This document shows, one piece after another, positions 19,928 through 58,058 of a DNA stretch of 64,000 nucleotides. Location: NCBI GenBank assembly GCA_051362555.1, contig CM120640.1:39906788-39970787 (forward strand), given 5' to 3'. The first letter of the stretch is position 1, and each line of letters begins with the position of its first letter. This stretch comes from Lingula anatina. Its lineage: Eukaryota; Animalia; Brachiopoda. The position numbers were made by a program, and so were the translations under genes. The notes beneath the pieces were generated by a model, which ran no database searches, was not told the origin of the DNA, and was given only the letters and a program-made list of their open reading frames with translations.

Positions 19928-21132
19928 GGCAACGGCTGTTAGCTAGTGCTTTCCCTTTCCAGGAAATCTGTTTCTTGTTGAACGTAGTCACCTGCAATGC
20001 AAGAGAAAACACGTCATTCTTTTATTAAAATATCTTAAATATATCTGTGCGACTTTATATACCAAAGAATGTATATTGTGAGTCGCCGGCAAAATCCCCC
20101 CAAAGCTGATGGTTAAGAAAAAACATTAATTCGTATCCAGACCTAACGCTGTGTTCTTTTTTTTTTCTGTGAGTAAGATAAAAACCATCAGCAAGACTTG
20201 CACGTACTAACCATCATGCTGAATTGCCTATTCATCAAACGCGTTTATGGGGTGCAATCCAACTAGTCAAAATGCGAGTCTAGATAGAGCTACGCCCGTT
20301 TAAATAGTGACAGTCAGAAATAAATGCACCAATCAAATTTTAAAACGGAACATTGTTAACTGAACACTCATGGCCTGAATGCGTGATGAAATAAAATTAA
20401 GTTCTGTGATATTTTTCAGGTGAATCCCATTAATTTTCTTTTCTCCCGTGTATCTGGTTTGCCTCATGCATGCGGAGAATGTAATCCGTCTAACAAATCA
20501 ACCTTGAAGCTACGGGAATTCTCTCTCTAGGATTTCAGCTGTTTCTTTAAGGTGGCAGGAGATAGCGAGGGTGGGGATGGGGAGGGTGGAGACTCCAAGA
20601 CTGTCCATAAACTCAGGGTGACTTGAAGGGTTGTTTATCTCTTCCACGGAAATGAAACCAAATCAGGTTTATAAAAAACACGCCAGCACGTTTTGTATAG
20701 GTTTGGTAATGGTAAAAACTTTCACGTAAGGATTGGCTTAGGATGTGCCTAAGACACTTAATTTACTTTGGTATGTAGCCTCAACATTAAATAACCTCTT
20801 AAGCGTTAAAACATGTTTCTGAACTAGGTATCTATGCAGAGCATCTGCCAGAAGGTGAAAGACTGTCTAATCAGCAACGTTTCGTTTTACGTATTCTGGA
20901 TGCTTTTTTCGCCTGGATGTTTCTTAAAACTTATAGGCTGACTGCACAGCTGTTATCTGAGGGATATATCAATTAGCTGCTTGACAACCATATTATTTAA
21001 TATTGCACGTATGGTGCGCTCCGCATGTATGCGTGACTGCATGTGTGCTGGTGTGTGTGTGTGCGTGCGTGCGCTCGCGCGTGCGCGTGCCTGTTTTCGT
21101 TAGAGCTTGCCTGTGTATGTTTATATATGCCG

Positions 21133-35200: not shown

Positions 35201-38200
35201 GGTCTTCTCCTTGTGTTTGATGGAGGTGGCTGTAGTAGCATGGCGACACATCATGTACACTGCTATACTCAGCATTACTATATTCACCTAAAAAATAAAC
35301 AGTATCTAATGATAATAACTCAATGAAAAGTTAATCCCACGCAATTAAGCATCAGGATTTAGAAAGAACAAGGCAGCAAAGCTGTCAAATGTACAGACAA
35401 AAAGCAGGAAATAACTATGCACAAAATAGGCTACTGTCAATTCTGATGCAAAAGTACATTATGTTAAACTGCAAATTCAACATCAAATTTTAATTATGCT
35501 CAACAGGTAATACCAATGTAAGTAAAACGTGTAAAAAGCATAAGGCTTCAGGCCCATGGGAGTTCAAGATCACACTTTGAAAATGTATAACTTCCGGAAA
35601 AAGAAGCCAATTAGACTACTTTTCCAACCCAGGCTGCATTTTAGTCCTGCATTTCTTTTTTGAACATTTGGCAATCATAAGTAACATGGTTTTCCCATAA
35701 TGGTCATCATGGCAGCAGCACCCATAATTGTTTTCTTCTATTCTGATGCAATATTACATATTGGTTAACAGCATAATGACCGTCAATTTTTAATAATAAA
35801 ATATACGTATCATGGATTTTCAGAAAATGTGACTAGCATGGGTCTTCAAGCATGTAGAACTTCAAAGTCACACCTTGAAAATGCCAATATGTGAAATATG
35901 CTGAAAAGTGAAAAAAAAGCATAACTTCTACAATAATGGCCCGATCATGCTGATTTTCGAACTTGACCTGCATTTTAAGAATATTCATCAGCTCTGTAAA
36001 TATAAAGCCCAAAAGTAAAACTGCCTTCCACTTATCGTGTTTACAATGAAAGTGCAAGTGCCGGTGACGGCGGTGACGGCGCTGACGGCGAAGACAGATG
36101 CAGGTGATGGCAATATGTACAGACACATTTTTGACACATCTGTACATATTTACTGTACTGTTTGAGAACAGTAAGTGACATGGTTTTTCTTAAATGGTCA
36201 CATGGGAGCAGTACCCAAAGTAGGTTTTTTCAAATTTTGATGCAATATTACATAATGTTTAACAGCATAATGACCATCAATTTTTAATAATAAAATATTA
36301 GTATCATGGATATTCAGAAAATGTGACTAGCAAAGGTCTTCAGGCCCATTGAACTTCAAAGTCACAACTTGAAAATGCCAAAATGTAAACAAGACAGCAC
36401 TGTTCTGAAATGTTTTTTTTCCCATTTTTAACAATTTTTAACATAAAACAAAATTAACAGCTTACTGCCATTTTTATATGATCAACTAAGAAAATTGATG
36501 AGATGGGAAAAATATCAATAAAGCAGTGTTAAATGTCCAATTTCTTCTATTCTGAGATTCTGAACATAGTGAATGATTGAATCTGACAAACTGCAATGAA
36601 ATGAGTTTATTTCCACTTTTGAAACTTTATTACACAATACACGATAACAAATTAACCATCATTTTTACATAATCAACTAACAATGTTATAAAGATGCAGG
36701 AAATGTCAAACAAACACTTTTAATATCTTATTAATTAAATAATGAAACTGTTAACATGCCTAAGAATTGAATCTGAGGAAATGTGTAAAAACAACATAAC
36801 TTCTAAAATAATGGCCCGATTATGCTGATTTTTTAACTCAACCTGCGTTTTAGCAGGATTGACCACTCCTGTGAGTTTAATGACAATTGGCCTATCTATT
36901 TTTCGTATATTGTGTTTACAGTGTTGCATATATGCTGAAAAGTGAAAAAAAAAGCATAACTTCTACAATAATGGCCCGATCATGCTGATTTTCGAACTTG
37001 ACCTGCGTTTTATGAATATTCATCAGCTCTGTAAATATAAAGCCAAAAAGTAAAACTGCCTTCGACTTATCGTGTTTACAATGAAAGTGCACGGCGCCGG
37101 CCCCGGCGATGACGGCGACGACAGACGCAGGTGATGGCAATATGTACAGACACATCTATATATATATATTCACTGTACTGTTTGAGAACAGTAAGTGACA
37201 TGGTTTTTCTTAAATGGTCATCATGGGAGCAGTGCCCAAAACAGGTTTTTTTTTTAATTTTGATGCAATATTACATAATGTTTAACAGCATAATGACCAT
37301 CAATTTTTAATAATAAAATATTAGTATCATGGATATTCAGAAAATGTGACTAGCAAAGGTCTTCAGGCCCATGGAACTTCAAAGTCACAACTTGAAAATG
37401 CCAAAATGTAAATAAGACAGCACTGTTCTGAAATGTTTTTTTTCCCATTTTTAACAATTTTTAACATAAAACAAAATTAACAGCTTACTGCCATTTTTAT
37501 ATGATCAACTAAGAAAATTGATGAGATGGGAAAAATATCAATAAAGCAGTGTTAAATGTCCAATTTCTTCCATTCTGAGATTCTGAACATAGTGAATGAT
37601 TGAATCTGACAAACTGCAATGATATGAGTTTATTTCCATTTTTGAAACTTTATTACACAATACACAATAACAAGTTTACCATCATTTTTACAAAATCAAC
37701 TAACAATGTTGTAAAGATGCAGGAAATGTCAAACAAAAACTTTTACGTATCTTATTAGTTTAATAATGAGACTGTTAACATGCCTAAGAATTGAATCTGA
37801 GGAAATGTGAAAAATATGCTGAAAAGTGAAAAAACAGCATAACTTCTACAATAATGGCCCGATCATGCTGATTTTCGAACTTGACCTGGGTTTTATGAAT
37901 ATTCACCAGCTCTGTAAATATAAAGCCAAAAAGTAAAACGGCCCTCCACTTATCGTGTTTACAAGGAAAGTGCACGGCATCGGCATCGGCATCGGCATCG
38001 GCATCGCCATCGGCGACGACAGACGCAGGTGATGGCAATATGTACAGACACATCTGTGTCTGTACATAAAAAGATGTCCAAAAATGCCCCTATCTTGCAC
38101 TATACAATTCCAATAATGCCAACAACTAAGATTTATGTAAGAAATGAAAATAAATAAATATTTCATTTGTTAATAATGTTTCAAGCTCAAACTGTCCTGT

Positions 38201-41200
38201 ATCATAAATGATCTAGTTTCAGAATTGAAAGTAAAAACATTACCCTTATCAAGCAACGAGCAATCCCAAACTCACCTACCAAATGTCAGAAATAACAATA
38301 AAAATAAATTAATATGTTGGAGCAATACTTACAGTGATAACTAAACACACTGGAGCCACAAAACTCCAAACAAAGTAGTTGTCTGCTCTAAGCCAGCAGC
38401 TGAAATAATATAAATATAGCTGAACAATTAAAAAAAAAAAAAAAAACCAAGATACATTTTCACATTCAGCAGTATACTTTACTAGTCTTTTAAAGTTTAC
38501 CAGCACAGGCTGGATATGTTAAGTTTACCACTTGATTTTACTGTCTTAAACCCATTCTCATAGACACCATCAGTCCATGTAGATTGATCCAACTCTGCAG
38601 GGACTCTCACTGAATGCCATCAATTTAAAAGATTAACATGTATTCTTCTGGTACATTAAACATTTCATACTACTTCAACTACTACTAATATTATTAATCG
38701 TAAAAATTTGTTCAGTTCTACTCACTAGTAATCTGTGCCGTAGCCTTTGTAGTCAACAGCAGCTGAGATGCCTACTATAACTGCAGGAATACCTAAAAAT
38801 ATTTTTTAAATATTTGATCAAATAACAGGCAATTGAATTGTCCAGTTAAATTCTTAGAATATGTAATTAAATCAATATCTTAAAGCTGAATCTCATAACC
38901 AAGTTTTATAACATTAATAGTTTAGCTTTAAAAAATTTGAAAATATTATCATGAGAATACACTATCATGGAATAAACCGGAAATATGCTGTTTCATAAAT
39001 AATGAATAATCTCAAAATTTAACATAAATAAAAAATCAAAAATATTTTCACTTTTAACTGCATTTCTTCAATAATATCCCTACAAAGATTTAACCCAACT
39101 AAGAATCAATGCCTGCAGTGAAACTCAAAAACCACTCACCATATCCTGCCAGATAAAACCAGACCAGTCTTGACTTCTTGCCTTCAAACACTTGAATGAG
39201 CATAGAGTAGAGCTGGATTCCTTCCAGACACATCCAACCAAATGCTGCCAGGAAGAAGAAATGGAGGAAGCCTGCTATAACCGAACACACAACCTGGAAG
39301 GCAGTTAATTAAAATGAGAACCGTTTTTCACCTTTAAGGCATAGAGGGTGAATACCTGGTGCAGAAATTCCACTGAAAAGTTCTGACTGGGTGTTTGAAT
39401 ACTTTTTCTGTTAATGAATGATAAGACCTTCATTTTTCAGGTTGCAAGGAGAGAGCACCGTTGAAAAGAGTTCCAGAATCTATCAAATGACAGTGTGTCC
39501 AAGAGATTGAGAATTTGGTTATTAAGAATGTACAATTATAATGACCAGCATCAGCCACATCAGTAACACTATTTTATTAGCTGATATTTTTATCACTTCT
39601 TCCTATCTAATCAAATATGGTTCACTTACTGGATGATCAGTCTGTTGTATTCCGCAAAGAAAAATGATTTCAGCAAAGAACAATGAAAACACCAAGTTCT
39701 TGTGGATGGATGTGCGTTCACTCTTAAGATTTCTGAAAATATAAAAGATCAAACAACAATAAACCTAGTATTCTTTAATCATGTAATGAACGATTTTTCT
39801 TCACTGCCTGTATGCTATTACAAAATCACATTAGTTAATATATGTGGAAATATCCAAGAATCAGACAAATTCCATTGCCACATCTTATATACAAGTATCA
39901 AACACGACAAAATATTTTTGCCTCACCCACTTGACCAACACCAAAACAAAGATCAAATCACATTCATTACTTATTATTTCTGATAATGTTATAAAAATAC
40001 CTTGCTGGTGAGTAGGGCAGACCAACACAAGAACTAATACTGAAAACTATAGATCCAGATTTGGTGTAGCTCACATGCATGCATGATGTACATGTATACT
40101 AGACACAACACATCTGGATATTTCATTCTGCTGTGGTATAAGTAAGTTTGGCATTTCTTACCTGAAGACCATGAAGGTCAACCACGTTAGAAACAGGCAG
40201 ACGATGGAAATGATGCACCCAAAATATGTGATAACTTGTAATGCCACTTCATGGTGTTCTGGAAGCTGAAAATTAGACCCGAGAATAACAATAAATACAA
40301 CTTTTCATGTAGATGTGAAATGAAGGGAGGTGAAATTATCAATGTTTAGAATCTTTTTACTTTTTCAAAAATAGTAATTAAGATGTAATAATTGAACAAT
40401 GTTGATTTCTTTTCAAAATCTATTTTGATCAAACTTTCTTTTTATTGTTAAATTGCTTTTCCTATTCACTACAAAAATCTTAACTTGCACATTTCATTTT
40501 CTTGTTTTTGCCTTTTTTTTTTTTGTTAAATTCATGTTTACTCCTATACATTACACAAAAATTTGTGTTCAACAATTATTCTTTGGATTAAATTTCTCCA
40601 TAATATCAAACAACATATCTACCTCTGTCCCTACAACATCCATGAGTACAGCAAAGTTGGTGAGGTGGTTACACTCACACTGTGTATGTGTATCATTGGA
40701 AGTCACCACACTACATCCCCTGCCAGACCAGGCACCATTCTCATCACTGAAAAATGGACAGATGAGATTTTCTTAAAGACACACACCGAGCATTTAACTT
40801 TTATATTAATTTTTCTGGTAACATCAGCACTTTCCCTTTATCCCCACTCACAAATTTACAATGCATAAACACTTTTTTGGATTTTAAGTTTTTTAGTATT
40901 TGAGTCATTTTCATGATGGAGATGGAGACTCAATTATCAAAATAAAATAGTTTTAATTGTACCTTGAAAAGTTCCAGAAGGAGCATTTTGGTTTTTCCAC
41001 ATTAGTCACCTAAAATGAAGGAGTGTCTTTAAATAGTAACCACCGAGGAAGAAGTAATTGGTTGAAATAATTTCAATGTAGGGTCATATGTCTCAACATG
41101 AACACCATGCTTCATGTTGACTGTCCTTGTTGATAACATGCTTCTCTTGAAATTAGTATCATACTCATACCATGCTCTTTCTCTTTATATCTTTTAAATT

Positions 41201-44200
41201 TTGTTTAAATCTTAAATTTACTTCTGAATAAAAAAAAAATTACATATATCTTTTAATCTGCCGAACAGATGGAAAATGAGTTAAAATGTACTATCTGATC
41301 ATAATTTCATAAATCTTATGTAAAATTTTGCTGAACTAGAATCTACTTTTTGGACAAGAAATTATCATTTTAAAAGCCTATTGACTCACATTCACATGGC
41401 GGAAGCTCATGTGTATGGGCTGTGCCAGCTGAATGTCCCCATCCTTGTTGTTCAAGGACAGTGACAAGATCTTGCTGTTCACTATGCTCACGTCTGTCTT
41501 ATTCTTGGCGCTGTCTGGCTTCAGCCACTGGTTTAGGTTGCTATATGAGATGAATACAATTTTCACAACACCTGGAAATTAAATGATTTGATATCATGAG
41601 GATAAAATACAAATTCAAACAGTTATTTAGAGACAAGTGCAATTTTCTATTTGCAAAAGCAGATATTAGCAGCAGTGGGTAGTTTTACCTGCCTGTTCCC
41701 ATGTACTTATTAAAGAACTATTAATTAATGCATGAAACAAAAAAAAAAATATTTCAAAACCCTCAAGATAATTTAAGTCCCAAAAAATTAAATCAGAAAA
41801 AGAAAGTGGTCTTACTGATTCTTAAGATTATTAAAATCAGTTACATAATTAAAAGTCTTACCATCTTTATCAGCATTATCCACAATGGCTGACTCCGGCA
41901 GAGTAATGGAATCGCTGGAATTAAGCATAGCTTGTTGTTCAGGAGTGGGGTAAACCCGCTGAAGTCTCTGGTCTGAGAAAGGATTAACCACTTCTATTTC
42001 TATGGCTAAACAGAGAACAGAAGTTAAACAGTTAATCTAAAAGATGAAAGCTCTGATTGAGATTAATGCTCAACTAATAAGGCAACTTTTTATGTACATG
42101 CCAATTACTGTCTTGACATAAAAAATCTACATTTTTAAATGCCCATTCAGCCTTATATCCCCTATAATACATTGCACTTGGTAAAAACTAGGGTCTGTTC
42201 CATTTTGAAAAAAAGACTTGCCTTTTAACTTCAACCATTATCAAGTGTAATAGATGGAAAACAACACTCACCAACATTTTCATCAGTACTCCTAACTGCT
42301 GGAGTTTCTACATTCAGGGTTTCTGCCACCTCAAATGCTGACCTCTCCAACAGCTTCAACAGTGTAGTGGCAGTCTCTACCTGCCTTTCTCTCTTCAAAT
42401 CCTTCCAGCCATTTCTCTGCTTGGGGGACAGCAAGTTACTGCTTGACCTCACAAAATTCTGAAAAATAAAATAGAAAAAAAAATGAAATCACAAACAGGA
42501 AATCCGAATATGCACTGGTCAAGTCATGGAGGATTGCGCTACCTGCTGATTTTTGACAGAAAAATCATAATATTTAAAAACAACTTGAAAGATGTCATCA
42601 ACATAACACACCAGAGTGACCAAGGCAAAAAAAAAAAAAAAAAGCCAAAAACTTTTGTACCAAGCTTTCACAATTTGCAGCCATGAGTATCAATTTGAAT
42701 ACTCAGAAATATAAAACAACATGACTTGATTTACCTTAGTAACATTGGTCGCCTTCATCACCCTGTTCTTTTCCTTGGTGTTTTTCAGCTCAGTCTTGAG
42801 TCCTTCTGCCATCTGCATCATGACTAAGGCAGAGCTGATGACGTCCCCACCATACAGGTCCTGACTGGCTGTGGCTGTGGCCAGGTCACTGGAAATATCT
42901 TCTATGGAAGCCTGGCCTGATTCAACCTGGATGGAACAGGAAAAATGTTTACTGCTGTGACAAAATCCTTACAGTGTTATTTCAGTCAGTTTACTGCATA
43001 AAAATTTACAGACAGTGAAAGAAATTTTTCTGACATTTTCTTATTCCTTATGTTGAAATGTCTGAAACTGAATTCAATACTAATTTTTGATTCAACAACT
43101 TTATACCAAATGATATAATTCATTAAAAAATGTACATTTGTTCTTTAAAACTTATTCTTAATCTTTTTTTCGTCATTCTTACTTTTCACTTTTTCAATTT
43201 AGAGTACTGACAGAAGCAGAACTTACGTCATTCTTAATCCTCGTCAAAGCATCAGATATACAGTCACTGAGGTCAGGGAGATCTATCCACTCCCCCATCT
43301 CACTGCATTTCCAAAAGGCCTGACCTAAAATGATGAATGACTCCATTAATATTAAATTTTGATCACCCTTCAGAGTTTTTCCTTTTGCGAAATGCCTACC
43401 TCATTTTTTCTATCCATTCATATCACTATATTTAAATATATTTTCTAGATCAATTATGAATTCCCTTTGAGCCAAATGAAATTCAATGCCATCCCCTCGT
43501 AACCTTATTGCATACACATTGCTAACACTTGATGACTGATAAATTGAAAAAAAAAAAAGATAAATAGAGGCTCAAAATATAATTATCTGTTTTAAAGATA
43601 AACTGCTGCTAATGTGATTGATCATGCCATAAAAAAGTCATAGGATTGGAAGGATAACTTTTTACTATCATTCATACACCGAGTTGGACATTCTGCTACA
43701 TCAATCAAATTCATAAGAGATATTTTAAATTTACTCCCAAGCACCATTTGAAAGTTATATTTTCAAACAAACTGAAAATATTTTTTTTTTCAATTTTTGT
43801 CCTTTTATTAATCAAAACTATATACTATAGTGATAAAACACATTTACCTTTCATCTTGTGAGGGCAATCTCTGTTTACGACCACATTGGGCTCTGTTCTT
43901 GGCCAAGTAATATTCCTCCGGAACTCCCTTCTGCAGAAGGGGCGAGGCCTGCCAGACTCTGTGACACTCGGGGTGATCTCAGTGGAAGACAGGGTGTCCC
44001 TCCCCGGGGGACTGGCTGGGGGAGTGTGCCTCCTTGACGGGGGGACAGTGGTACTGGTTGTTGTCACTGATGTTGCTGCTGTTGAAGATGATGATGATGT
44101 AACTGTTGTTGGCTCGGTCCTTGCTCTCGTTGGAGAAGGTTGCCTGGGTGTTGTTATCCTGGTTGTTGTTGTTGTAGTTGTTGTAGAAGAAGTTGTAGTT

Positions 44201-47200
44201 GCTGAAATCAAATGTAATGAACTGGTTGTCTGTAACCATTCAGAAGACAAGGAAATAAGAACAATGAATGCATTTCATACTGCAATATAAACACAATAAG
44301 TCACTGTCTAAACAGTTTTTAATTGAAAAATTAATATCCAGTATCTTTAGTATTATTAATGTGGCAGTCGTCGAATTGTTCTATGCAGTTAGGCAATCCA
44401 TTAAATTAATTTCCGTTTTTCAAATCATCATGCTCTTTGAGGGTTTAGCAGGTTAACACTTTATGACTCAATGAATCAATTACTTTATCAACAATTGCTT
44501 ATTGCATGCTTAATAAGCATATATTATGTCATCCAAGGCAGTTAGTACTTCTGAAATAAAGTAATCATCTCTGAGTGCAGTTAGTCAAGTTAGCGCAATC
44601 ACATAGCAACGTGCCATTAAAGTATGATATTTGTTATTCACTTAATGGAAGCTATGTCAGCTATGTTCCACTGTGGACAAATGGTCTGGAAACAAAACTG
44701 AATGCATTGGCTTATTAGTCATTATTATTTTTTAATGGTTATCAAAGCAGTGTAGTCACCCATCAGGGACGTGTTAAGATCTGGACTAAGCAGGACCAGA
44801 AATAGTCCAAATGACATCACTTGACAACCAGATTACTTCACTTGGGACCAAAAGAGGCATGATGTAATTTGGTCATTCGGTGAGGTCAGCTGGATTATTA
44901 CTGGTCTTGGTTTAATTCTGTGAACACCATCAGTGAAAGCAGCACTGCATTACAACACTGCAATCCATGCAGAAATAGCAAGCATTAAATGTGCGCAGTT
45001 AAAAGTGGTCATTGTATAAAAAAAGAGGACAGAAAATGTTTAAATTTTCATATCAAAAGGTCCACATGTTACAGTTAGATGAGATAATGTTTTGAAACCA
45101 AAATTGTTATAAAAAGGAGCACAATTGTATTATTCCACAAGTTTAGTTTAAATTTTCATATCGAAAGGTCCACATGTTACAGTTAGATGAGATAATGCTT
45201 TGAAACCAAAATTGTTATAAAGAAGGAGCACAACTGTATTATTCCACAAGTTTAATGTTAGGTATGCTTTTTAACAAATCAGATACACATTAAATTTGAC
45301 CTAAAATGTTTGAAAAGAAACCTCAAATCTTAAGGATAGGAAGTTACTGTTCTGTCTGCGGTGAGTAAAAGAATCAGGAATGAAACACTGTGTATAAATG
45401 AAATACAGGCAGTAAGTGGAGAAACTGCCAATTTTTGGTCCATAAACTTCAGAAAGACATGTCAAAAGACAAAACACAAGTTAAAGGCATGACTTAGATG
45501 TCCATCTTTTATCTTCAGCTAGTAAATTCAAGAGAAAACCGTGGTGCAAAGAAGAAAATAAAAAAATGTTCTATATTTAGCTTGAGCTGCATACAAGATA
45601 AAGGGCACACATAGATAATCAAGCCACAAACATGCTCAGGCACAGGCGCACTAATGAAAAAAAAAAAGGTGAAATGTCTAGGTCGCTACTGTAGCCATGC
45701 TGCATCTCCAAGGGCACTGCATCCTCAAATCCTCAACATCACGCCCTCCTACTTACTATGAAATAAAGCGGGCTGGGTAGTAGTGCTTAAATGAAACAAA
45801 GTTTCAACTGGGGCCTCAGAAGGAAGGTAGCCCTCTGAAACAACGAATTGGAATGGACGTCATGCAAGACTTCTGCAGCCAATTGAGAAACAGAAGCAGC
45901 AAAAATATCGGAAGGAAAAACTGAAATACAACACTGATTCAAAGCTGGACTGACTCTAACATTGGGTTATGTTCAACTATGTGCTACTGGATTGACTTTT
46001 TAAAAACTTTTGTCAGCCCTGATTAATTGCACTCAATTTAAGTTTCTCTGCTCTTTACAAGGCATGTAACAACCAAAATGAGGCATTTTTAGATGGATAC
46101 ATGTTAGAGTGAGTCTTATATGCAAATGAAGCAAAAAATTGCATTTCGAAAATAAACTAGCAGCTGCTGCAAAAAATATTGGACAACCATAAAACAAGGC
46201 CCTTTTTAGGTTTTTTTGTCAGCTTTATAGATATGTGCCATAACTTTTCAATTCACTTTCACTGGGAAACACCTTATTCACATTAAAAGGGTTAAAACAA
46301 GTGTGTTAGAATAACATCTGAGTCTGGGAAAAACATTCTCCCCTTTATCTTGTAGTGTAACTGGTGCCAAAAGCAAACATCTAGGCAAGACATATCTTTT
46401 TCATCTAGTAAATCTGTCTGTGCCTCCCAGCCCAAGTTTGAAATGTCACCATTGCCAAAATAAATAAAGCACTGGTTTATAAAAATTATCTTTGACATTG
46501 ATAGAATTACTCCAACAATACTAACTTTTCTTTTCAAAACAAGCTGGGCCAACGCTTGTCTTGTTCCAAATGTTGCATCAATTTTGTGTAAACTTTCGTG
46601 TGGGGGATCTCTAAGCTTACTTCAAACATAAACACAGTTTCTCTCCCAGCTCAGATGTATGTCTAGCAGTAGCTTATATCAAATAAAAAATTAACAAAAA
46701 AAAAATAAGACATTTATCATCATCCTAAAAATTGTATTATTTGACCACAATAAATTTATAATATTAAGTATGTACAAATTATAAAAATATATAAATACAA
46801 AAACCCAAGGAAAACAAAAACTGCAAACATAAGTGATATCGAATTCAAGCCTCGGGGACAATCTCAACATGCCAAAAATAACAATCAAAGTAATGATCCA
46901 TGAACTATAATCAACACAAAGCATGTTTTAAACCTGGTTCTGTGCTATATACTCACAATAAGTTTGAGAAAAGAAAACTGCAATACAATGCAGTATAATT
47001 AATACTGCTTATAGATATCTATCAAAATAAAGAATATTTATATATGTATCACTATTATGTTTCCAACTAAGGACTGGTGACAGTGACATAATTTGATGAA
47101 TTTTCAATGCTTGACGAACAAATAGTATTTTCGTTGAATTTGGCATTCAGAGAATACATGAACCAGGTTTCTCACAGTTACTGTGCCTCTCATTGTTCAT

Positions 47201-50200
47201 AAATAAATCAACATGCAGAATCAAGATAGCAAATCTACAAATTAATTCAGCCTTGAACATAACAGAAATCAAACTATGGTAATTACACACAAATTTCAAA
47301 CACCTTACATATTCCACTTTCCCAATGATTACAACTCATCATTTTTAACTTAAATATTATTCAAAATTTTTTTTCACAAGAACTTCTCTTACAAAACACT
47401 GCATTGGGAAATATGTGTTTAAAATTAGAGAGCAATTACCACATCAACATCTAGCCTACCTGGAACACATCTGTACTGTATTTCAATGTACTTGTACACC
47501 TTTCGACAGGGGTCTCCAAAATATCCGTTATTTATAGGCAAAGAGCATGCAAATTGGCCTTGGCACCTGTGATAATATGGGAAAAGGACATGCATGGATT
47601 ACTACTGATTATCTATTTGTAATTAGTAAAGTGGTGCCAATATCTGCAATATTAACTCATTTGTATACATTGTTAGTAGGACTACTGGTTTGATTTTTTT
47701 CTCTTCTTTTTTATAAGAAGGGCCAAATGGCACTGTTACAAAATCTGTAAGTGATTCAACTTTTTTTTTGTTCCTTTTGCTTTTTAAAATGCAAATCAAG
47801 CAATTTGGGCAAAAAATCATGTCAACGTGTTTTATCAGAATTAAATGAAAGCTTAAATCCTGTTTCTTAATGGTTGAAAATTTCCAAATGCAAAACAATA
47901 TGGATCTAAAAATAATTATCTTTTCTGTATGTGTTTGACCACTTTCCAATATAATTTTCATGCCAAGTTGTTTTGCTGTAGCTCTAGATCTGTAAACAAG
48001 ACATCAAAATACTGTGATAGCAGAATACAAAAAAGTCCTTGTAAAACATAGGTTTATTGAATCGCCTACAATGTTTGTGACAATGTCAATACTTCATTAT
48101 TTTCAGGGCAATTAGTACTATGTATAACGATACATCATCATGCATATTGATTGTTATGATAGATATACTTCCTGCAAACAAAAAAAACCCATACAAACAA
48201 ACAATCAACAACAAACCATCCTAGATGGTAGTCACGAGGCATTTTTATTTTTGTGTAGGCTATGACGATTCTAAGAACTGGTGGGCAGAGGTTATCACCG
48301 TGTGTGTGCGTGCATGCGCATATGTATGAGTGTGTGTGTAAAGTAAGAGTGTTCTTGACATATCTAGGTTAATTGAAAACCACATTGTTGAGTCAAAGCT
48401 GTTCTAACTAAGAAAAATTCAGAACAGTATCATTATGATAATCATAAGCCTCAGGTGGATATTCCCTCAGGTTATCATTGCATATTGATCTGTGACAGAA
48501 GTCCCCATGTTGAAAACACACAAGTTGATCCAAAAGGCAAACAATGTGTGGGTGATCACTAACACTCAGGTGAAACACCGGAAATATTATTTTCTATACA
48601 GAGTATATGGGGTGAGTCATGCACAGTTATGCAGACACATTTTGTAATAGAAGATAAGCAATAATTCCTGGTGCGGCTGTTCGTTTGACAGATATATCCT
48701 ACCCTCTTTAGCAGACTGCCATTTCTTGCTGTTTCTTTTTTTTTTTTTAAGTCTGAATGATGATGCTACATTGTAAAACAACTTCATACACTTATCTCAT
48801 TGGGTAAGCTTACATTTTTAATGTGAAATATCAATTCTATTGTTTGTAACAATCAAAGGAAACAGGACTGAAGCTCCTCCCCCCCCCCATCCCCCAAACA
48901 CACACACACACGAACTTAAATAATTAATCTACTTGGACACTTAACTTGGCAAAGTCTAACCAACCCTTCAAACCAGCACTGAGTTCGAGTCTGCTAATTG
49001 TTACTCGTCTAATAATTATTGCATCGAAAAATTTGACACCAAATATACAGCCAGACAGACAGACACAGAGCTCCCCCAGTATATAATAGGAACCTTAATG
49101 TTGTATCATTTCCACCATAATTTACCCTCACAGCATAACATCCTGTAAGTGAGAAATAATATCCCCACACAAACACTTTCAGCTGACCCACCTCATATGG
49201 AGTACATTTATTTTGTCTCTGATTTATTCCTTCTAAGATAACAGCAACCTGCCAATGCCTGTGGCTTGTGATTATTATTATTCGTAGAAGTCTGGCTGGG
49301 TGAAGTTAAGTAGTGCAAAAGGTGCTGCAAACCAATATTGGTCAAAACATACTAAACTGTTATATTATCGGAGGGCATTGTGTACATATTCCCTTCCATT
49401 ACGTTTGTTTTGAGCACAGGGCAATCAAAATCAGACCACCTGAGACTAAAATGGCCTTTATTACAGGTGGTCAGTGTGTGGTCAGCTAGTTAAGAAAAAC
49501 CAACTGACCATTAGGTTTTGAATTCTGACCTGACAGCCAGTGTTGTAAGCACCAGCCATAAAGGTAGCATTAAATACAGGTGGTCATCCCCATCAGAATC
49601 TGGCACTGTACTGACCAATGGGACTTATGTAAATGACCACTAGAGTAAGTCAGTTGGTCAAAGGGATCATTTGGTTCACAATATTGACAGGCAGTCCACA
49701 GACTGCCACTTGAGAAAGATTTACACTCACTCTGACGTGACAGACACAACACTATCAATGGCTACTCTAACAGACTGGTCTTGCGGTGCTTTTTTGACCA
49801 TTGGTGGCCACTGACCATGCCCGTGACTGGTCTGTGGGACAACGGGATGACATTTTTTTTTTCTGTGACCACCAGACCACCATGGCTCCACAACAACTTG
49901 GCAGCATTCCCATGTCTAGTGTGACATATGGTGTCACTAGTGCCACAGAATTAATAATGTAAAACTTTCCACTCATTTCTCCCACACACAGTTTCCACTC
50001 GTTTTTACTTCCCCATAGAGAGTATCATATAATAAGCATATCTATGGATATACGTTTTCATGTCAAACTTATTGACAATTTCCTTTAGCAATGTGTTTCT
50101 CAATTCTGGCATGAATATACTTGTGCTACAGTTGTGAAAAAAAATGGGATTTGTGTCTAGATGACATTTTTGATTGATGTAAAATATGTAAGTCTGACTC

Positions 50201-53200
50201 AACAATGGCAAAGATTGGCTCAAATTTACAGTATGGAACTGATTAAATGTGTCAAGAAAAAAGGATACAAAGTTAGGAAATCTGTCTCCAAAGTTTGTGA
50301 TTTTGCATCCCATTAGAAGCCACTACAGTGCTGCAAGAAACAGGATATTTCCTGCTGCAATTGTAAAGTAAGAGACTGTTTCTCATTATCTTCAACACAC
50401 TTGAAATTAGTAGGAAAAAAAACAGTGATGTATCAGACGAACCAGCTGTCACTGACATCAGTGTTGTTCCAAACTGGTAAAAACCAGGCATATATCAGCC
50501 TAGTAGACTGTTTTGGTTCCTGATACCGTGATGGCATCACCTCCAGTACAAGTGATGCATGAATTACTTTCAAAGTCTAATAATGACCAAATTCTTTTCT
50601 TTGACAAATTTGTTTAAACACACTTCTCAGAACACCAACAATCGCCCACAGAATACTACATCTGGGCCACAGTTAAAACTTATTTCTTGTGTTTTGTTTC
50701 TCTTATTAAAGAAAAAAGTTCAAAAGAAACATCATTCCCTGTGATCAACCTTGCATATTATCTTTCTGTTTAACCATAACCAGGTTTCCCAGCCAGCCTA
50801 ACAGCCAGGAAAACACTGCCTTTCTTTAGAGTCATATATCTAATGTGAAAATTTCTTTTTGTCATGTCTTTTTTGAGGTTTTGTATCACATCATTCCCAG
50901 AGAATCACAATCACCTCAAGTTCAGTCATGCCATTTATCTTTTCCATGCACCATGCTCTGATATACCAGTCTGCCCATAACACCCTGAGTGTTTGAGACC
51001 CAAACTGAAATTTCCCACCATATTCTGACAGGGGCAGTCATCTTTAGCTCTCAAATACTCAGGGTGTTCCAAAGCCGCATTCATACAAGGTCCATTTCAG
51101 GCTGGGTATAGGTCTAAATTGTGTTGTAAAACAATGGATTTAATTGACAGCGGGTTCTACTTGTGCAAAGGCAGTCTTTCAACACAAATTGGGCCAGTTC
51201 TTAGCCAGAAATTATCCTTTCTGAACAGGCCTTGATGTCTCTAGGCCTGCTGCTACTCCCCACACCAAATGTCAAACTCAGCAGACCTGCACAAACTCAT
51301 GTCTTTTGACTCTCAATTTGTTGGACTTGCACTTTGATTTTTCATGGCATAGGAATTCCTGACACGACCATTTCTGTCAAACAGGAGGAAATTAATTACC
51401 GTTTTCTTGTGATCTTTTCAATTTTTCTGTGCAAGTCAATGCTGAGCATGTAAGGGAACTTTTTCACAACAAACTGGGATATATAATTAGGTACAAAAGG
51501 CATTTTTTAGTCTATTAACAAAAAGTCAAATTTAATGGAAAATAATTCAAATTTCTGAGCAGCTTTTTTTTTCCTTTTTAAGAAATACGAATAGATTCTT
51601 TACCATAGACTAACAAAGAGAAAAAAGTTTTTTAATTTTTGTGTTTAATTTGCCCTGATAAGAGTTGGCAGCAGATACCGTGACATAGCAGGCTATTTGT
51701 ATCATTTGGAGTCTTTTTCACAACAGTGCTATAGCCTGAAAACTTTTTGTCCATTTTGACACAAAATAAAAAAGCAGTCCAATTAAATGAAATGGTGTTT
51801 TATAACAGGGGAGGCATGGTTAATTTACGTGACCTACTATGGATTTTCCTTGTTCTGAAGTAGAGCTCAGTTTTGGTCTTAAAAATTAAGACCAATTTAG
51901 GGGCTATAGCACTTTTGTGAAACTGGCCTCCACAGGCAGGATGGGCAAAAAACAGTATAATATACCTAATCTAGTCGATGCATATACATATGTACACATA
52001 TATGTATATATATATGCTCCATGCACAGGTGCCCCGTAAGTTGTTATACATATGATATTCACCTCCACCTTACCTAAGATACACTGGTATTCAACCTCCA
52101 AATATTTAAGTGTATCAGAACAAGGGTCACTAAAAATGACATTAGAAGCTGGAACACTGCAATTGTTCCGGTTACACCTAGGTATATAAAGTTTAAAAAT
52201 GGCACTAGGAAAAAAGCAAGTAATCAACAGCAGCAGCACCACCACCAACATACAATTCATTAAAAGTTCTGAAAGGCATAGGAGTGAAATATTGGTGCCA
52301 AATGCTACTTGAATTGATTTCAGTCACCTTTCAATGTCTCATTCTTGGAAAATACTGGAAGATATTACAGATAATTTTCCCCCTTGATCCCCACTGAAAT
52401 TCACCATCTCTTTGCTGTTTGTGTTCTTGAATTTCTTTTCCAATACATAAAAAACTGAATGTTTTAAGCATGAAAAACTTCAGTCTTGTATTGGCTATCA
52501 GTAATGGGTCTCACTTTCCTCACTCCTATGCCGTTAAATAAAATGCTACCACCACCAAAATTAATGCACAGTATATATATAAGTCAAGTTATCATTTCTT
52601 GATAATGTTTACAAATAAAGTACATGAAAAACAGAAAAAGAAATTTTGATAACAGATTTTAGCAGTTTTAATATCAACACAATGGAACTTAAGTTTCAGG
52701 AAAAAATTAAGAAAATCTATTCAATATAAGCTATTATAAAAGAACATTATAACAGAATTATAGCTCTAAGAATTAAAAAGACAGTTAAAAATTTCAAAAC
52801 AAAAACTGGAGTTACAGAAACCCAAGTGGTATGTATAATACACCTATCTAACTTGCTCATTCCAGAGAAACAGGCCATAAAATTCACACTGCAGCCCCCA
52901 GTTTCTATTTTATCAGAAACGGTTTTAGGTGACAATATATATTACAGTGTCATTCAGCAATAAAGTACTGTGTGAAGTCAAACATCTTTAAGCCAATTAC
53001 TCAGAGGAAGTGAAGTAGGATCATTTTGAATGAGCATAGGAAGTCATTTAGGCTCCGGTTGAAAAAAAAATGGCAAATTGCCATCTTTGTTGACTGGCTT
53101 TATGCCATTAGCCCTGCCATCATGTATTTAGTCTCCTGGTTCACTTTCAATGCCTTTTCAACATGGAGAAACCATTAGACTGATATATGGTTATAACTTT

Positions 53201-56200
53201 TTTGTTCCCCTTGTTAAATGTTCTATTTCAAACCTGTTTTCAATCTCAGCCAATTTAATGGTAAATGTAATACTTCATTTAAAGCTGTTACATTATTTGG
53301 GTTTACTGTCTTTCTTTATAATGAGAAGTAAAAGAAAATGATGCATCAAGCAGCTGTCAGAAAAATGAACATCTTCTACAAGAGAATTATACCACTTACA
53401 GTACTATCTGTGCTTTTTTTTTTTGGCTTGCTATTTGAGTTTTTTGCATGACGCAAAAGCCATTAAAGACAGTGAAATGCTTATATCAAGACCATGCAAC
53501 CTTTAAGGGATATGTTGGAAATAGTGATAAATGTCTTTACTTCTAGGGGAAAAGGTTTCTAACATGTATAAGAGTGAACTGAATGGCTATTTTATAACTA
53601 CAGCTTATTCTTTATGTATTTTTGGGTGTTTATTTTTAATTTATACTAACTATGAAGAGAATAGGTTTAAATTGCTTTACAACTGTTTTTTCTCTTTTTT
53701 ATCCTTTTTTTTTTACCTATACGAATGATGAAATGGTGAACAGCCAAATTCTGTAGAATATGATAATGTTTGAACTTCACACAAACCTTAATAATCATAA
53801 GCAAAGTACTTGGTAGGCATGGTAAAAAAAGGAAGTGTAACAATTCTGCTTTAAGAAGTTCTTCCAAAAAAATATCATGTACCTTTGCCGCACTATTCTC
53901 ACTGCTCTTGGAGACAAACAGTCAGTACTGTAGGCCTTGCCTTCCTCGTTACACACTGAGTTGGACAAGCGGCCATAGTTGGCCCGTATAATGTGCAGCA
54001 CCAGGGTCTCATTCGAACACTTCAGGTCCAAGTAGGAACCCTCGCAGGCGTGGGCTGTGATGTAGGGCATTTCACTGAAATTGGAAAATTATACATCATT
54101 AACAGCAAAAAAAAAAGTTATATCAATGTTTATTTAACATGAGGGAAAAATTAGTCTCGTCTTTGCAATTGAGGGAAAAAAGTCTGGTCTTTGTGATTGT
54201 CAGAGGTATAAGTGCATTAACATATTTACTATTCATTAGTATTCATAGTCATTCACATATGTCGTAGAAACACCACAACTGAAAATAAGATAAAATTAAA
54301 GAAAACATTTTCATGCTCTTGCTTGAAGTGGGAGCCATCATATGATTAGTTTTCACAGGGATAAAAACAACTACTAGTTAAGTAAACTGCTTTTCCAAAG
54401 TCCAAGCTGAGATCAAAAATAAGGGAAGAAGATGAAGAACAGATATATTTTGTAATGTTAAACAAATTACAGATGCATACAAAACCGCAACTGACATGAC
54501 TACTGAACTGAACCCACAGGTAAAGAATCACAATATTGGACCACACGCATTTGTCAAACTTTCTTTCACAGGGTCCTTACTAGCCCAAGGCTGTCCCTGT
54601 TCTGCACTGGGAATATCAAAATGGCAGTGTGATGTTAAGGGCAGAAGGTTGGGTTCTAGCACAATGAAATAAAATTCAAACTGAGCAAGCAGTTTCCATT
54701 TTCTTCAGACTGTCCCAATTTAAATGATTTTTAGATGATGGTCAGTGTAGTGATAACCAACACAAGTGTGAACACACTACATGATGGGTGTTATATGGGA
54801 CCAGCACAAGTGTGAACACACCACATGATGGGTGTAGTATGGGACCAGCACAAGTGTGAACACACCACATGATGGGTGTAGTATGGGACCAGCACAAGTG
54901 TGAACACACCACATGAAGGGTGTAGTATGGGACCAGCACAAGTGTGAACACACCACATGGACACAAACCATAAGGTAGACAAGAGCTTGTAGTTTACATC
55001 TATATGTATGTGTGTACTGTAGCTTCTTAGGTTATTAGGGCAAGTGTTTAGCCAAGATGAATGACCCATGAAACACCACACCTGAAACTTGAATAAATAC
55101 ACCCCAGCACAACATGTGCCCATCACAAATAGATTTCCTGTCCGATAAAAAAATGCTCTGCTTCTACTTCATTGTTTTTTTAACAAATTATTTTTCTTTT
55201 TTTACAACATCCAAGAGGATGATTTAAATCGGCCACTGTGAAATGCGAAAATGACCACAAAGAGCAACAGTGATTGAATAACTCAATCAAAAATAGAAAC
55301 CTAGTTGTAGATCACAGCAATGAAATTTAATTTGAAATTTACGTGTATACATAATGGCTCATAAAATAGAGTAAAAATGAACAAAAAATTATATTAAAGA
55401 CTGCCTTTCTTTATAATCACATGCAATGATTTTTTAGAGGAAAAAAAAACATGTCACAGATGTCACCATTTTGCTAAAATAGTCTTAGAGAAAATAAAAC
55501 CAGGAGCTGATAACTGGGTTTGGGGGTTAACAGAATGACGGAGTTTAGACAGATACAGACTGGCTAGCTTGCAGACATCTGCACTTATGGTTGGTGCTCA
55601 AAGATAAAAGTGCCTTTTAGACAAGTAAAGGACAACAGGGCCAAAGCATGTACATATAAAGAGACCTGGACACTGTCCTTTTAATACAGGATAGCCACAT
55701 CATGAATCTACTATGTTACTTTTTTCTAACCTACCCATTAGATGAGAGTCACATACAACATTAAAATAAACGGTTGAGTTACAGCAGTATAGTCTGAGGA
55801 ATTTATTTAAACCAATGACTGATTCAAACATATGATTCTGGTAAGTTTCAATTCATTTTTTCCTGCAAATACTACAGATTTATCATTTATCATTGTGTGC
55901 TTCTATCTCTAATTTCAAATATTGGAACCACTTTTATCACTGTAAAACTTGGGTGTGCCTCAATATATTCTGCCTGGATTTCATAAAAAGTAGTCTGATA
56001 TTCAAGATAACATGTGAAGTAACATCAACAGCAGGATACATAATCTAAGTTTTTTTGACAAAGGAAATATATGGAATAGTTGAAGATACAAGTGGTTCTA
56101 AAACCACACCATCAACTATAACATCTGCAACTTGACATGTTGCTGCATGACTAAAGTGAAATCTCTAAAGATGCAGTAGCATTCTTCTTTCAGTTGTGTG

Positions 56201-57245
56201 AAATGCTTCAAAATGGGTGGCAGAGTGTCAGAAATAATGGGTAAATACCATGAAAGATGTGTAGATCCAACATAAAACATCCATCAGCTGGTTTTTACTT
56301 AGCAACAGCAAATGTGCAAATACATGAAGGAATGCTGTACAAAGTCTTTCTGTTGGATAATATGATTTACTAGTATATAATTCTTGCAAAGATAAAATTG
56401 ATGAAGAAAAATTTTAAGCTGTTATTATCCTAGTTCTGAAACATTTTAATGTTGTTAAAACAGTGGCATTAAACAACTAAGTTTATACCCCGCTTACTTT
56501 GCCATGGGCACATAAGTAAGAACATAAACCAGTTACCTTTTTGGAAGACTCGAAAAAGATTTTAAAACATGCATCAAAACTGCAGTTCTCAAGTCTGCAG
56601 AAGAGGCAAGGCTGATCTTGGATGTTTGGTATTTCATACCCATTAATCATGCCAGCTTGTTTGACTTTCAAGTTCTAATTCTGCTTCTGAACACTTGAAA
56701 TTTTCAAGTAAATTTGCCTTGTTGGGGCCACAGTCATGCTGATGCTGGAGTTTTGAGTAGAAGAAAAAAAACTGGAGTGGGAGATGTCTATTTGACAGGA
56801 AGGACCGAGCTGGATTCCTAGGAATCTGCCCATTAAGACATAAGAGAAAAACATACTCTGGAAACATTCTGGTCAGTAAAATACATAAATTTTGTTAAGC
56901 TACCCCATTTAATATGGAAATGAAAAGGGCTAGCTACATACACTCTTTCTGTTTCCAAATCAAATGTTTTCGAATTTTAATTTATCAAACCATAACCAGT
57001 CTCGCTTTCCTCCCCCCCCCCCCCCCCAACAAGTACAGCATAAAATCTTAGCATCCTGCTCAAACGCGAAAAAAAAAAATTGAACCAATTAGTAGCCTGT
57101 CAAGTTGCTTATTCTTCAATGTCTGAAATGAGTTCACCATAGAATGAATTCAGCATACATCCCCCATCACTTACCTCCTCCCACCTTTAATGAGCAGGCT
57201 CTGGAGAATGAGGAAGATGACTCCTGCCTGCGCCAACCTCTCCAT
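32292..57245 (-). CDS. Cirl: Latrophilin/Cirl-like adhesion GPCR (ADGRL family): signal peptide, RBL/SUEL lectin, S/T/P stalk, HRM, GAIN/GPS, 7TM and long cytoplasmic tail
   Basis: Hand-spliced GT-AG exons in frame: 57245-57175, 54074-53883, [52177-52074 or 47566-47460], 44201-43848, 43324-43227, 42926-42735, 42458-42272, 42005-41862, 41571-41390, 41009-40963, 40746-40623, 40265-40162, 39732-39630, 39293-39140, 38792-38726, 38399-38333, 35287-35184, 34862-34694, 34165-34025, 33597-33516, 33139-32292. Motifs: ACEG...ANYGR, DPC..KY, CSFWNF...W...GC...[56 protein letters not shown]. No olfactomedin domain (invertebrate type). Confidence 0.93.
35367..38072 (+). mobile_element. Non-autonomous Helentron/HINE (DINE-1-like) element with internal tandem duplication, inside a latrophilin intron
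   Basis: 5' ATGTACAGACA at 35389-35399 pairs with the 3' end, where a 14-bp hairpin TATGTACAGACACA-TC-TGTGTCTGTACATA (38039-38068) is followed by an A-run. The core GCATAACTTCTACAATAATGGCCCGATCATGCTGATTTTCGAACTTGACCTG recurs at ~35919, ~36954 and ~37837, each copy followed by a variable GACGGC/CGGCAT microsatellite. Repeat period about 1020 bp (36151 vs 37171). Confidence 0.65.
40623..40746 (-). other. GPS autoproteolysis exon with tethered agonist (Stachel)
   Basis: Encodes [28 protein letters not shown]|[13 protein letters not shown], a canonical H-L-T cleavage site. Confidence 0.92.
43848..44201 (-). other. Mucin-like Ser/Thr/Pro stalk exon plus start of the HRM domain
   Basis: [22 protein letters not shown]...[27 protein letters not shown]. 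Phase-1 acceptor tttcag and donor G|GTAAAT. Confidence 0.88.
45040..45255. repeat. Tandem duplication, two copies of about 108 bp
   Basis: TAAATTTTCATATC[A/G]AAAGGTCCACATGTTACAGTTAGATGAGATAATG...TATTCCACAAGTTTA occurs twice with few differences. Confidence 0.9.
47460..47566 (-). CDS. Latrophilin lectin C-half, alternative exon B (107 nt)
   Basis: tcacag|G TGC CAA GGC...TGT GTT CCA G|gtagg encodes (R)[35 protein letters not shown]. Phase 2 in, phase 1 out. Confidence 0.85.
51708..51928. mobile_element. MITE (~220 bp) with TTTCACAAAA-type terminal inverted repeats
   Basis: Left TTTCACAACAGTGCTATAGCC; right GGCTATAGCACTTTTGTGAAA (reverse complement TTTCACAAAAGTGCTATAGCC, 20/21 match). Confidence 0.65.
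52074..52177 (-). CDS. Latrophilin lectin C-half, alternative exon A (104 nt)
   Basis: acctag|G TGT AAC CGG...TGT ATC TTA G|gtaag encodes (R)[34 protein letters not shown]. Phase 2 in, phase 1 out. Confidence 0.87.
53883..54074 (-). CDS. Latrophilin lectin N-half exon (single copy)
   Basis: [63 protein letters not shown]. Phase 2 in, phase 2 out. Confidence 0.92.
54761..54958. repeat. 44-bp minisatellite, about 4.5 copies
   Basis: Unit CACAAGTGTGAACACACCACATGATGGGTGTAGTATGGGACCAG starting at 54761, 54805, 54849, 54893 and 54937. Confidence 0.92.
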
Positions 57246-57357
57246 CTTCTCTCTTTCTCTCTCACCCTGATGATATAATAGTATAATGCTCCTGGTATGT
57301 GGCTTTTTATTTATTCTTTTTGCTCTGCTACCTCATGCAGCTGCATTCCATGTCTCC
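57175..57357 (-). CDS. First coding exon of latrophilin (5'UTR part plus signal peptide [23 protein letters not shown])
   Basis: Acceptor tttttgcag at 57358, AAGATGG start at 57245, hydrophobic core, and donor AG|GTAAGT in phase 2 matching the lectin exon. Confidence 0.8.
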
Positions 57358-58058
57358 CTGCAAAAACACAATAAAATGTTTATTACATAGTTGTGTGTGT
57401 ATAATGTGCACTTAAATAACCGCTGCATCAAAATAATTTTTATGAACAGTAGTTTGTAAAAAAGAAAAATAAGATGAAGGCATAAATAAAATCTGCACTT
57501 GTAAAACAGCTTTTCTTTAGCATCATTCATGGAAAAATATTTGAAGCACAGACATAAAAGGATGGACAAGAAAAATAAATACACATAATAAGAACAAAAA
57601 ATTGATAATTGATGATTCTCCTTTAAAAAAACCTTTAAAAATTATCAAATCAACTTCATAATGCAAATAAAATTAAACAAAAAACAATCTGTCAAAATCT
57701 CTGGTACAATATTGCATGCTTCCTTCACCCCTTACAAAATCAAGTCATCAAAACAGTCCTGCTGTCCCAGTAACTGTGCCATATCTATCAATCATAGAGT
57801 ACAATATTGTCACTGTCTTGGAGAGGACTCAACCATGCAATAAGAAAATTAAGAATTTCCAACAACCTATATCATATTTTAAGTCTGCTTTTTAACCAAA
57901 CAATAAGGGAAACAGGGCTACTTAAATCCTGGGGTTTCTAACACTGCAGATTCACAATCTTTTACTCTCTGAAGATTTGTTTCCCTGACATGCACTGAAA
58001 AAGTTGAGGGTGGGTTGGGGGGGGGGGGGGGGGGGGGGAGTACACAACAGATGCAAAC

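What the first reader, a model, noticed from the sequence alone, without database searches (positions are those of the whole stretch)
47460..54074. Mutually exclusive exons swap the ligand-binding half of the latrophilin lectin domain
Seen in sequence: one exon encodes the lectin N-half (53883-54074, ends in phase 2). Two intact paralogous exons encode the C-half: A 52074-52177 ([34 protein letters not shown]) and B 47460-47566 ([35 protein letters not shown]). Both enter in phase 2 and exit in phase 1, keep all four Cys and the DPC..KY motif, and have GT-AG sites. Using both or neither shifts the frame into the phase-1 stalk exon, so exactly one must be chosen. I found no second N-half, so this is not a tandem-lectin design. 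Established: the DPC/KY region forms the rhamnose pocket of SUEL/RBL domains, and the latrophilin lectin domain binds teneurin. The vertebrate splice event I know here is a mini-exon after the lectin, not a swap within it. Inference: the gene makes two receptors with different lectin surfaces (acidic SDPCSDT..EVE versus basic GDPCRKV..QYR), a small Dscam-like switch of adhesion specificity. I know of no description of this for latrophilins but cannot search the literature here.
Basis: partly seen in the sequence, partly recalled or inferred. Interest (0 to 1): 0.9.

Follow-up and report, generated by a model that had tools for sequence, protein, structure and literature searches.

The report
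Swappable lectin-half exons in brachiopod latrophilin
A brachiopod cell-adhesion receptor gene splices in one of two duplicate exons, so the receptor is made with either of two versions of the loop predicted to form its sugar pocket; the same choice is already proven in the nematode gene and appears in arthropod, bivalve and amphioxus gene models, but what it does to binding is untested.

Summary
The finding is real and expressed, but it is not a new kind of thing. The gene is the Lingula anatina latrophilin, and RefSeq already lists both forms. RNA-seq from 8 runs shows all four predicted junctions. Exon A use ranges from 0 to 0.71 between samples. Exclusivity is leaky: one run has 12 A>B reads, which give a premature stop. 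The same swap at the same boundary is C. elegans lat-1 exons 3a/3b, validated by RT-PCR, UNC-75-regulated and partly NMD-dependent (PMC3627589, PMC4165533). It also appears in scorpion, beetle, bivalve and amphioxus isoforms, and this scan noted it before in three arthropod windows. The swapped piece carries the sugar-pocket loop. The published teneurin and TOL-1 hot-spot residues I read all lie in the constant exon, so a Dscam-like partner switch is not the best reading. Ten searches found no paper linking these exons to the lectin or to their recurrence across bilaterians.

The parts
57175..57359 (-). First coding exon (ATG at 57245, signal peptide); 5' boundary near 57359
   Evidence: tblastn of RefSeq isoforms; joint 54074-57175 in all 8 runs and loose ends at 57359
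53883..54074 (-). Constant exon: lectin N-terminal part, holding the positions of the published teneurin and TOL-1 hot spots and of pocket residues Glu42 and Tyr63
52074..52177 (-). Alternative exon A (104 nt): lectin C-terminal part with sugar-pocket loop; adds one N-glycan sequon
   Evidence: 35 N>A and 58 A>stalk reads; RefSeq X3, X5, X7
52020..52025 (-). TGCATG (RBFOX-type motif, recalled) 49 nt downstream of A
47589..47594 (-). TGCATG 28 nt upstream of B; another copy lies inside B at 47551, where coding could explain it
47460..47566 (-). Alternative exon B (107 nt): paralogous lectin C-terminal part, the major form in most runs
   Evidence: 107 N>B, 225 B>stalk and 17 B>M reads; RefSeq X1, X2, X4, X6
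45757..45834 (-).
43848..44201 (-). Constant Ser/Thr-rich stalk exon, entered in phase 1
32295..43324 (-). Rest of the gene: HRM, GAIN/GPS, 7TM and cytoplasmic tail exons

Best explanation
The Lingula latrophilin gene splices one of two duplicated exons (A or B) onto a shared lectin N-half in proportions that differ between samples, likely under an RBFOX-type splicing factor and with decay likely clearing the out-of-frame double-inclusion form, so that the two receptors keep the same mapped protein-docking positions but differ in the loop predicted to form the sugar pocket, which likely tunes binding to glycosylated partners. Shown: exon anatomy, use of both exons, variation between samples, the A+B stop codon, and the same swap in other phyla. 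Inferred: RBFOX bound downstream of A and upstream of or inside B would favour A (positional rule recalled); NMD would remove A+B transcripts, as reported in part for C. elegans lat-1; the functional effect on affinity.
For: Junction reads: the A share of donor junctions is 0/23, 0/20, 0/21, 13/22, 36/191, 0/7, 5/7 and 4/9 in runs X1-X8; chi-square p 1e-9; X4 against X5, from the same study, p 1e-4. A+B stops after 133 aa, 72 nt before the next junction. TGCATG lies within about 60 nt of 3 of 6 alternative-exon flanks against 0 of 38 constitutive flanks, Fisher p 0.0015, post hoc. Pocket positions 116-119 differ between A and B while Glu42, Tyr63 and Lys120 are kept. A teneurin N-glycan inserts into this pocket in the LPHN3-TEN2 map (PMC7195488). 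C. elegans LAT-1 a and b swap 37-aa and 35-aa pieces that match exons 3b (113 nt) and 3a (107 nt).
Against: No binding data exist for either isoform. Both AlphaFold jobs gave an unusable lectin (pLDDT under 50). Mouse Lphn1 binds rhamnose only weakly (Kd 1.8 mM) and its authors favour non-carbohydrate ligands; C. elegans LAT-1 lacks the key Glu and still has the swap (PMC2430599), so sugar cannot be the whole reason. The runs come from unknown tissues and polymorphic individuals, so part of the variation could be genetic. The exact UNC-75 consensus is not near A or B. Four motif patterns were tried. Exon spans for the constitutive control were approximate, and the first coding exon, which holds one TGCATG in its 5' untranslated part, was left out of that control. 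NMD was not tested here.
Confidence: 0.55

Rival explanations
1. Dscam-like specificity switch: A and B receptors bind different protein partners (teneurin, a Toll-like receptor or a DSL ligand) through a surface formed by the swapped exon.
For: The two exons are only 40% identical and differ in net charge (-2 against +2). An A-type exon is highly conserved across insects. The Lingula pair matches the insect A and B profiles in parallel. The full interface residue lists were not seen, so contacts from the swapped part are possible.
Against: All hot-spot residues named in the passages I read for teneurin and TOL-1 lie in the constant exon. There are only two alternatives and no evidence of homophilic binding.
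Confidence: 0.22
2. The pair is a tolerated duplication with little functional difference between A and B; the regulated outcome is receptor dose, through unproductive A+B splicing or a short secreted lectin of 133 aa.
For: A+B makes up 25% of A-donor junctions in X5. Only one C-half is seen in 8 of 13 multi-member ortholog clusters, including all 15 listed Anopheles entries. The amphioxus and nematode pairs look lineage-specific, which fits an exon that duplicates easily.
Against: Both exons are intact and spliced in frame after deep divergence. A+B was listed in 1 of 8 runs. Arthropod A and B types persist from scorpion to beetles.
Confidence: 0.13
3. The swap changes glycosylation, folding or surface delivery of the receptor, not ligand choice.
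For: Exon A adds an N-glycan sequon that B lacks, and most insect A-type exons carry the same sequon.
Against: Some insect B-type exons also carry it. The differences cluster in the pocket loop as well.
Confidence: 0.1

Closest known systems
C. elegans lat-1 exons 3a/3b (LAT-1 isoforms b and a; PMC3627589 Table 1, PMC4165533 Table 1)
   Same: Same gene family and same switch point, just before the fifth lectin Cys. Two homologous 3n+2 exons (107/113 nt against 104/107 nt here). Mutually exclusive, with frameshift on double inclusion.
   Different: The intervening intron is 112 nt there and 4507 nt here. The regulator shown there is UNC-75 (CELF); here only RBFOX-type motifs are seen. The nematode pair groups together in the tree (96/82, long branches), so it may be a separate duplication.
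Annotated Cirl/ADGRL isoform pairs of Centruroides, Tribolium, Zophobas, Agrilus, Mytilus, Ruditapes and Branchiostoma
   Same: Shared lectin N-half with two different C-halves switching at the same Arg|Cys boundary.
   Different: Seen here only as protein isoforms; their genomic DNA could not be read. The amphioxus pair forms its own clade (97/91), and mollusc plus Owenia exons group together (94/92).
Vertebrate latrophilin splice site A (4-5 aa insert after the lectin; PMC6629964, PMC7195488)
   Same: Alternative splicing next to the lectin tunes teneurin affinity. Cassette M sits at a comparable place, right after the lectin.
   Different: An insert outside the domain, not a swap inside it. 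M is 26 aa and no homology was tested.
Dscam1 exon clusters (general properties recalled)
   Same: Duplicated, mutually exclusive exons that encode half of an extracellular domain of a cell-surface receptor.
   Different: Two alternatives, not dozens. No convincing docking/selector pairing was found. No evidence of homophilic or isoform-specific binding.

Membership tests
Latrophilin / ADGRL | SUEL/RBL lectin, stalk, HRM, GAIN/GPS and secretin-type 7TM in one chain | tested here: met
   Pfam hits above cut-off for both isoforms; best PDB hits are ADGRL3, L2 and L1
Homologous mutually exclusive exon pair | Adjacent paralogous exons of similar length and the same phases | tested here: met
   104 and 107 nt, both 3n+2, 14 of 35 aa identical
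Homologous mutually exclusive exon pair | Both single-inclusion forms are expressed | tested here: met
   N>A 35, A>stalk 58, N>B 107, B>stalk 225 reads over 8 runs
Homologous mutually exclusive exon pair | Double inclusion and double skipping are absent or unproductive | tested here: met
   Skipping not listed in 8 of 8 runs; double inclusion listed in 1 of 8 runs (12 reads) and carries a premature stop
Homologous mutually exclusive exon pair | NMD enforces fidelity | not testable with these tools
   Stop lies 72 nt before the next junction; no NMD-inhibited library at hand
lat-1 3a/3b-type lectin swap | Same boundary in the lectin | tested here: met
   Alignment A1
lat-1 3a/3b-type lectin swap | Descent from the same duplication (exon orthology) | tested here: inconclusive
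   33-column tree; one all-bilaterian A clade p-AU 0.033; Lingula pair as a clade p-AU 0.25; Lingula A with arthropod A p-AU 0.44
lat-1 3a/3b-type lectin swap | CELF/UNC-75 elements flank the exons | tested here: inconclusive
   Exact consensus only at 51472, 49896 and 49752, over 600 nt from either exon; loose UG-rich matches 73 nt before A and 11 nt after B
Dscam-type specificity cluster | Docking/selector RNA pairing | tested here: inconclusive
   221 weak inverted repeats; none of the 25 shown has a docking/selector layout; no cross-species introns available
Dscam-type specificity cluster | Isoform-specific protein recognition | not testable with these tools
   No binding data; the hot spots I read map to the constant exon
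Sugar-binding RBL domain | Glu at first Cys+1, Tyr63 and Lys120 present (PMC2430599) | tested here: met
   Present in both isoforms; Gly117 is replaced by Asp in A and Lys in B, Tyr119 by Leu in A; binding itself untested

The most novel reading that the evidence does not exclude
The same latrophilin lectin half-exon was duplicated into a mutually exclusive pair several times independently in bilaterians (arthropods, possibly shared with the brachiopod; bivalves; nematodes; amphioxus) and is put under tissue-specific RBFOX or CELF control. It would be an overlooked, convergent switch that rebuilds the glycan pocket and so changes which glycosylated partner the receptor engages in neurons versus other tissues. 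Structural and genetic work on one isoform (LAT-1a) would then describe only one of two receptors.
Probability: 0.3. Interest if true: 0.72.

Novelty: new member of a known kind. Interest (0 to 1): 0.45.

Why it matters
The lectin domain is the partner-binding module of latrophilins (teneurin, TOL-1, LAG-2). The TOL-1 crystal structure used C. elegans isoform a, and the passages of the 2026 adhesion-GPCR review I read list no lectin swap. If the second exon changes binding, invertebrate and amphioxus latrophilins have a hidden specificity layer that can be tested at once in worms, where both exons and a regulator are known. The Lingula locus adds a phylum, RNA evidence for regulation and leaky exclusivity, and candidate cis-elements. 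By itself it is an already annotated isoform pair.

Tried and rejected
No whole genome was held, so relatives' introns, exon order and dN/dS could not be examined. A PDB sequence search with exon B alone was not carried out, so residue mapping rests on an alignment to a vertebrate row anchored at Glu42 and checked at 11 published positions. AlphaFold on P0001 alone (mean pLDDT 37.7) and on alignment A1 (lectin region about 30-50) gave no usable lectin model, so no fold search was run. No complex was folded, because no partner sequence was in hand. Tandem-lectin design: rejected, no second N-half. Pseudo-exon: rejected for both exons. Steric exclusion or U12 incompatibility: rejected, the intron is 4507 nt and all sites are GT-AG. 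Docking/selector pairing: nothing convincing. One ancient duplication covering all lineages: disfavoured at p-AU 0.033, but on 33 columns, without the mixture model, with an unsettled bootstrap, with A/B assignments for molluscs, nematode and amphioxus taken from weak profile scores, and tested after the tree was seen. A regex for read-through models with two C-halves found none and missed the C. nigoni case seen by eye. Zophobas A was dropped from the tree as identical to Tribolium A; P0027 failed extraction. Insect A/B sets were grouped by eye from the best 120 of 361 hits.
Full report
Observation. Joined by coordinates, N-A-stalk and N-B-stalk stay open. N-A-B stops after 133 aa, 72 nt before the next junction, and skipping both stops after 161 aa. 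A and B are paralogous (14 of 35 aa) and the window holds no other lectin half.

Identity. The N-half matches Lingula anatina ADGRL proteins at 98-100%. Of the 7 RefSeq isoforms in the cluster, 4 use B and 3 use A, and 3 also carry a 26-aa insert. That insert is a 78-nt cassette exon at 45757-45834. Both isoforms have the full latrophilin architecture.

Expression. I laid 8 of 9 listed RNA runs, reading 6-26% of each. Summed reads: N>A 35, N>B 107, A>stalk 58, B>stalk 225, B>M 17, M>stalk 24, A>B 12 (run X5 only). Skipping of both and A>M were not listed; a joint is listed only from 3 reads. The A share of donor junctions is 0 in four runs and 0.19-0.71 in the other four (chi-square p 1e-9). 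Tissues are unknown and the animals are polymorphic, so tissue regulation is likely but not shown. Of four read variants listed inside B, two are synonymous and two together change one residue in run X8 (only the top 40 variant rows were shown).

How the choice is likely made. The A-B intron is 4507 nt and all sites are GT-AG, so neither steric nor spliceosome incompatibility applies. No docking/selector layout stood out. TGCATG, which I recall as the RBFOX element, lies 49 nt after A, 28 nt before B, inside B and 32 nt before M. It lies near none of 38 constitutive flanks (3 of 6 against 0 of 38, p 0.0015; post hoc, four patterns tried). By the recalled positional rule this would promote A and repress B and M, which fits M being seen joined only to B. 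Leaky A+B transcripts would be NMD targets or would encode a short secreted lectin.

The event is known in C. elegans. PMC3627589 (passages and section 11 read) lists lat-1 exons 3A (107 nt) and 3B (113 nt) as RT-PCR-validated mutually exclusive exons regulated by neuronal UNC-75. From the sign for ret-1 exon 5 I infer that UNC-75 favours 3A. PMC4165533 (passages with the Table 1 row) classes them as homologous, 45.9% aa identical and partially NMD-dependent. PMC2265522 (one table row) lists lat-1 as changing between L1 and adult, without naming the exon in that row. LAT-1 isoforms b and a differ by 35-aa and 37-aa lectin C-halves, exactly those exon sizes, and a C. nigoni model reads both in tandem. 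The switch point aligns with the Lingula one.

Breadth. Among 20 ortholog clusters looked up, 7 were singletons. Of the 13 others, 5 show two C-halves behind one N-half (Centruroides, Mytilus, C. elegans, Ruditapes, Branchiostoma) and 8 show one (Haliotis, Tubulanus, Mizuhopecten, Lycorma, Sitophilus, Anopheles, Lucilia, Sepia). Absence from gene models is not absence from the genome. Among the best 120 of 361 insect hits, Tribolium castaneum, Zophobas and Agrilus have both types. Three earlier notes of this scan describe the swap in arthropods.

One origin or several. Against insect profiles, Lingula A scores +8.4 bits (A minus B) and Lingula B -13.1. That contrast was reached by 1 of 276 pairs among 24 non-arthropod C-halves, which hints at orthology with the arthropod pair. 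A 36-row, 33-column tree groups the amphioxus pair (97/91), the C. elegans pair (96/82) and the mollusc plus Owenia exons (94/92). It disfavours one all-bilaterian A clade (p-AU 0.033) but rejects neither a Lingula-specific duplication (0.25) nor Lingula A with arthropod A (0.44). Several origins, or gene conversion, are likely; this is weakly resolved.

What is swapped. In mouse Lphn1 numbering the swap starts at Cys96. The rhamnose pocket uses Glu42, Tyr63 and Gln77 from the constant part and Gly117, Thr118, Tyr119 and Lys120 from the swapped loop (PMC2430599, passages). Lingula keeps Glu42, Tyr63 and Lys120 in both forms and differs at 116-119. Teneurin hot spots 39, 51, 54, 67 and 72 (PMC6978801, passages) and the LPHN3 salt-bridge residues 44, 49 and 67 (PMC7195488, passages; that paper's own numbering) fall before the swap. 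So do LAT-1 F69 and D79 for TOL-1 (bioRxiv 2023.05.04.539414, passages and section 10). The three acidic teneurin positions are Leu, Ser and Asn in Lingula. PMC7195488 reports a teneurin N-glycan inserted in the sugar pocket, which gives a route for the swap to tune affinity. Against a sugar role, PMC2430599 finds weak binding and favours protein ligands. [quoted passage not shown] Supplementary interface tables were not read and could change this mapping.

Print status. Ten full-text searches found the C. elegans splicing tables but no paper that ties the exons to the lectin domain, tests the isoforms or notes the recurrence. Passages of two reviews (PMC13197933; PMC6629964) and of the Cirl isoform preprint (10.1101/2023.01.11.521585) describe other splice events only. 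Subscription papers are outside the library.

Verdict. This is a real, regulated exon pair (about 0.97) and a new member of a kind already validated in C. elegans and present in gene catalogues. The open and testable part is the function and the repeated origin. Interest 0.45.

Noticed in passing
window 45757-45834 (-): 78-nt cassette exon after the lectin; its upstream joint was listed only to B (17 reads), although RefSeq X3 joins it to A. In run X6 all 7 B-donor reads go to it.
   Followed up: partly
window 52177 and 47566 (-): Both alternative exons begin with GT and exon A ends in AG, so the N|A, N|B and A|B joints regenerate splice-site-like sequences; re-splicing could rescue double inclusion. 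Coding constraint alone could explain it; untested.
   Followed up: no
window 57359 (-): Two different loose-end sequences attach at the 5' edge of the first coding exon in different runs, which suggests alternative 5' exons or promoters beyond 60900.
   Followed up: no
window 13196-14209 and 18806-19942 (-): Two long open frames, each with two Hsp20/alpha-crystallin domains: tandem double-domain small heat-shock genes.
   Followed up: partly
window about 1300-7911 (+): Multi-exon gene ending in a PARP catalytic domain; upstream frames look like macro domains by eye (recalled, PARP14-like), not tested.
   Followed up: partly
window 54750-54960: Tandem repeat of about 44 nt in the intron; a RefSeq fragment model on another scaffold (P0001) reads it as a spurious N-terminus.
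   Followed up: no
window 35800-38200: Several diverged copies of a repeated element inside the long intron of the 7TM region.
   Followed up: no
P0009: A 1930-aa database entry repeats the stalk-to-7TM region twice, probably a fusion of two haplotype copies in an assembly.
   Followed up: no
P0309 and P0136 clusters: All 15 listed Anopheles entries and the 3 Lucilia entries with a lectin C-half show only the A-type; loss of B in flies could explain why Cirl work has not met the swap. Genomes not checked.
   Followed up: partly
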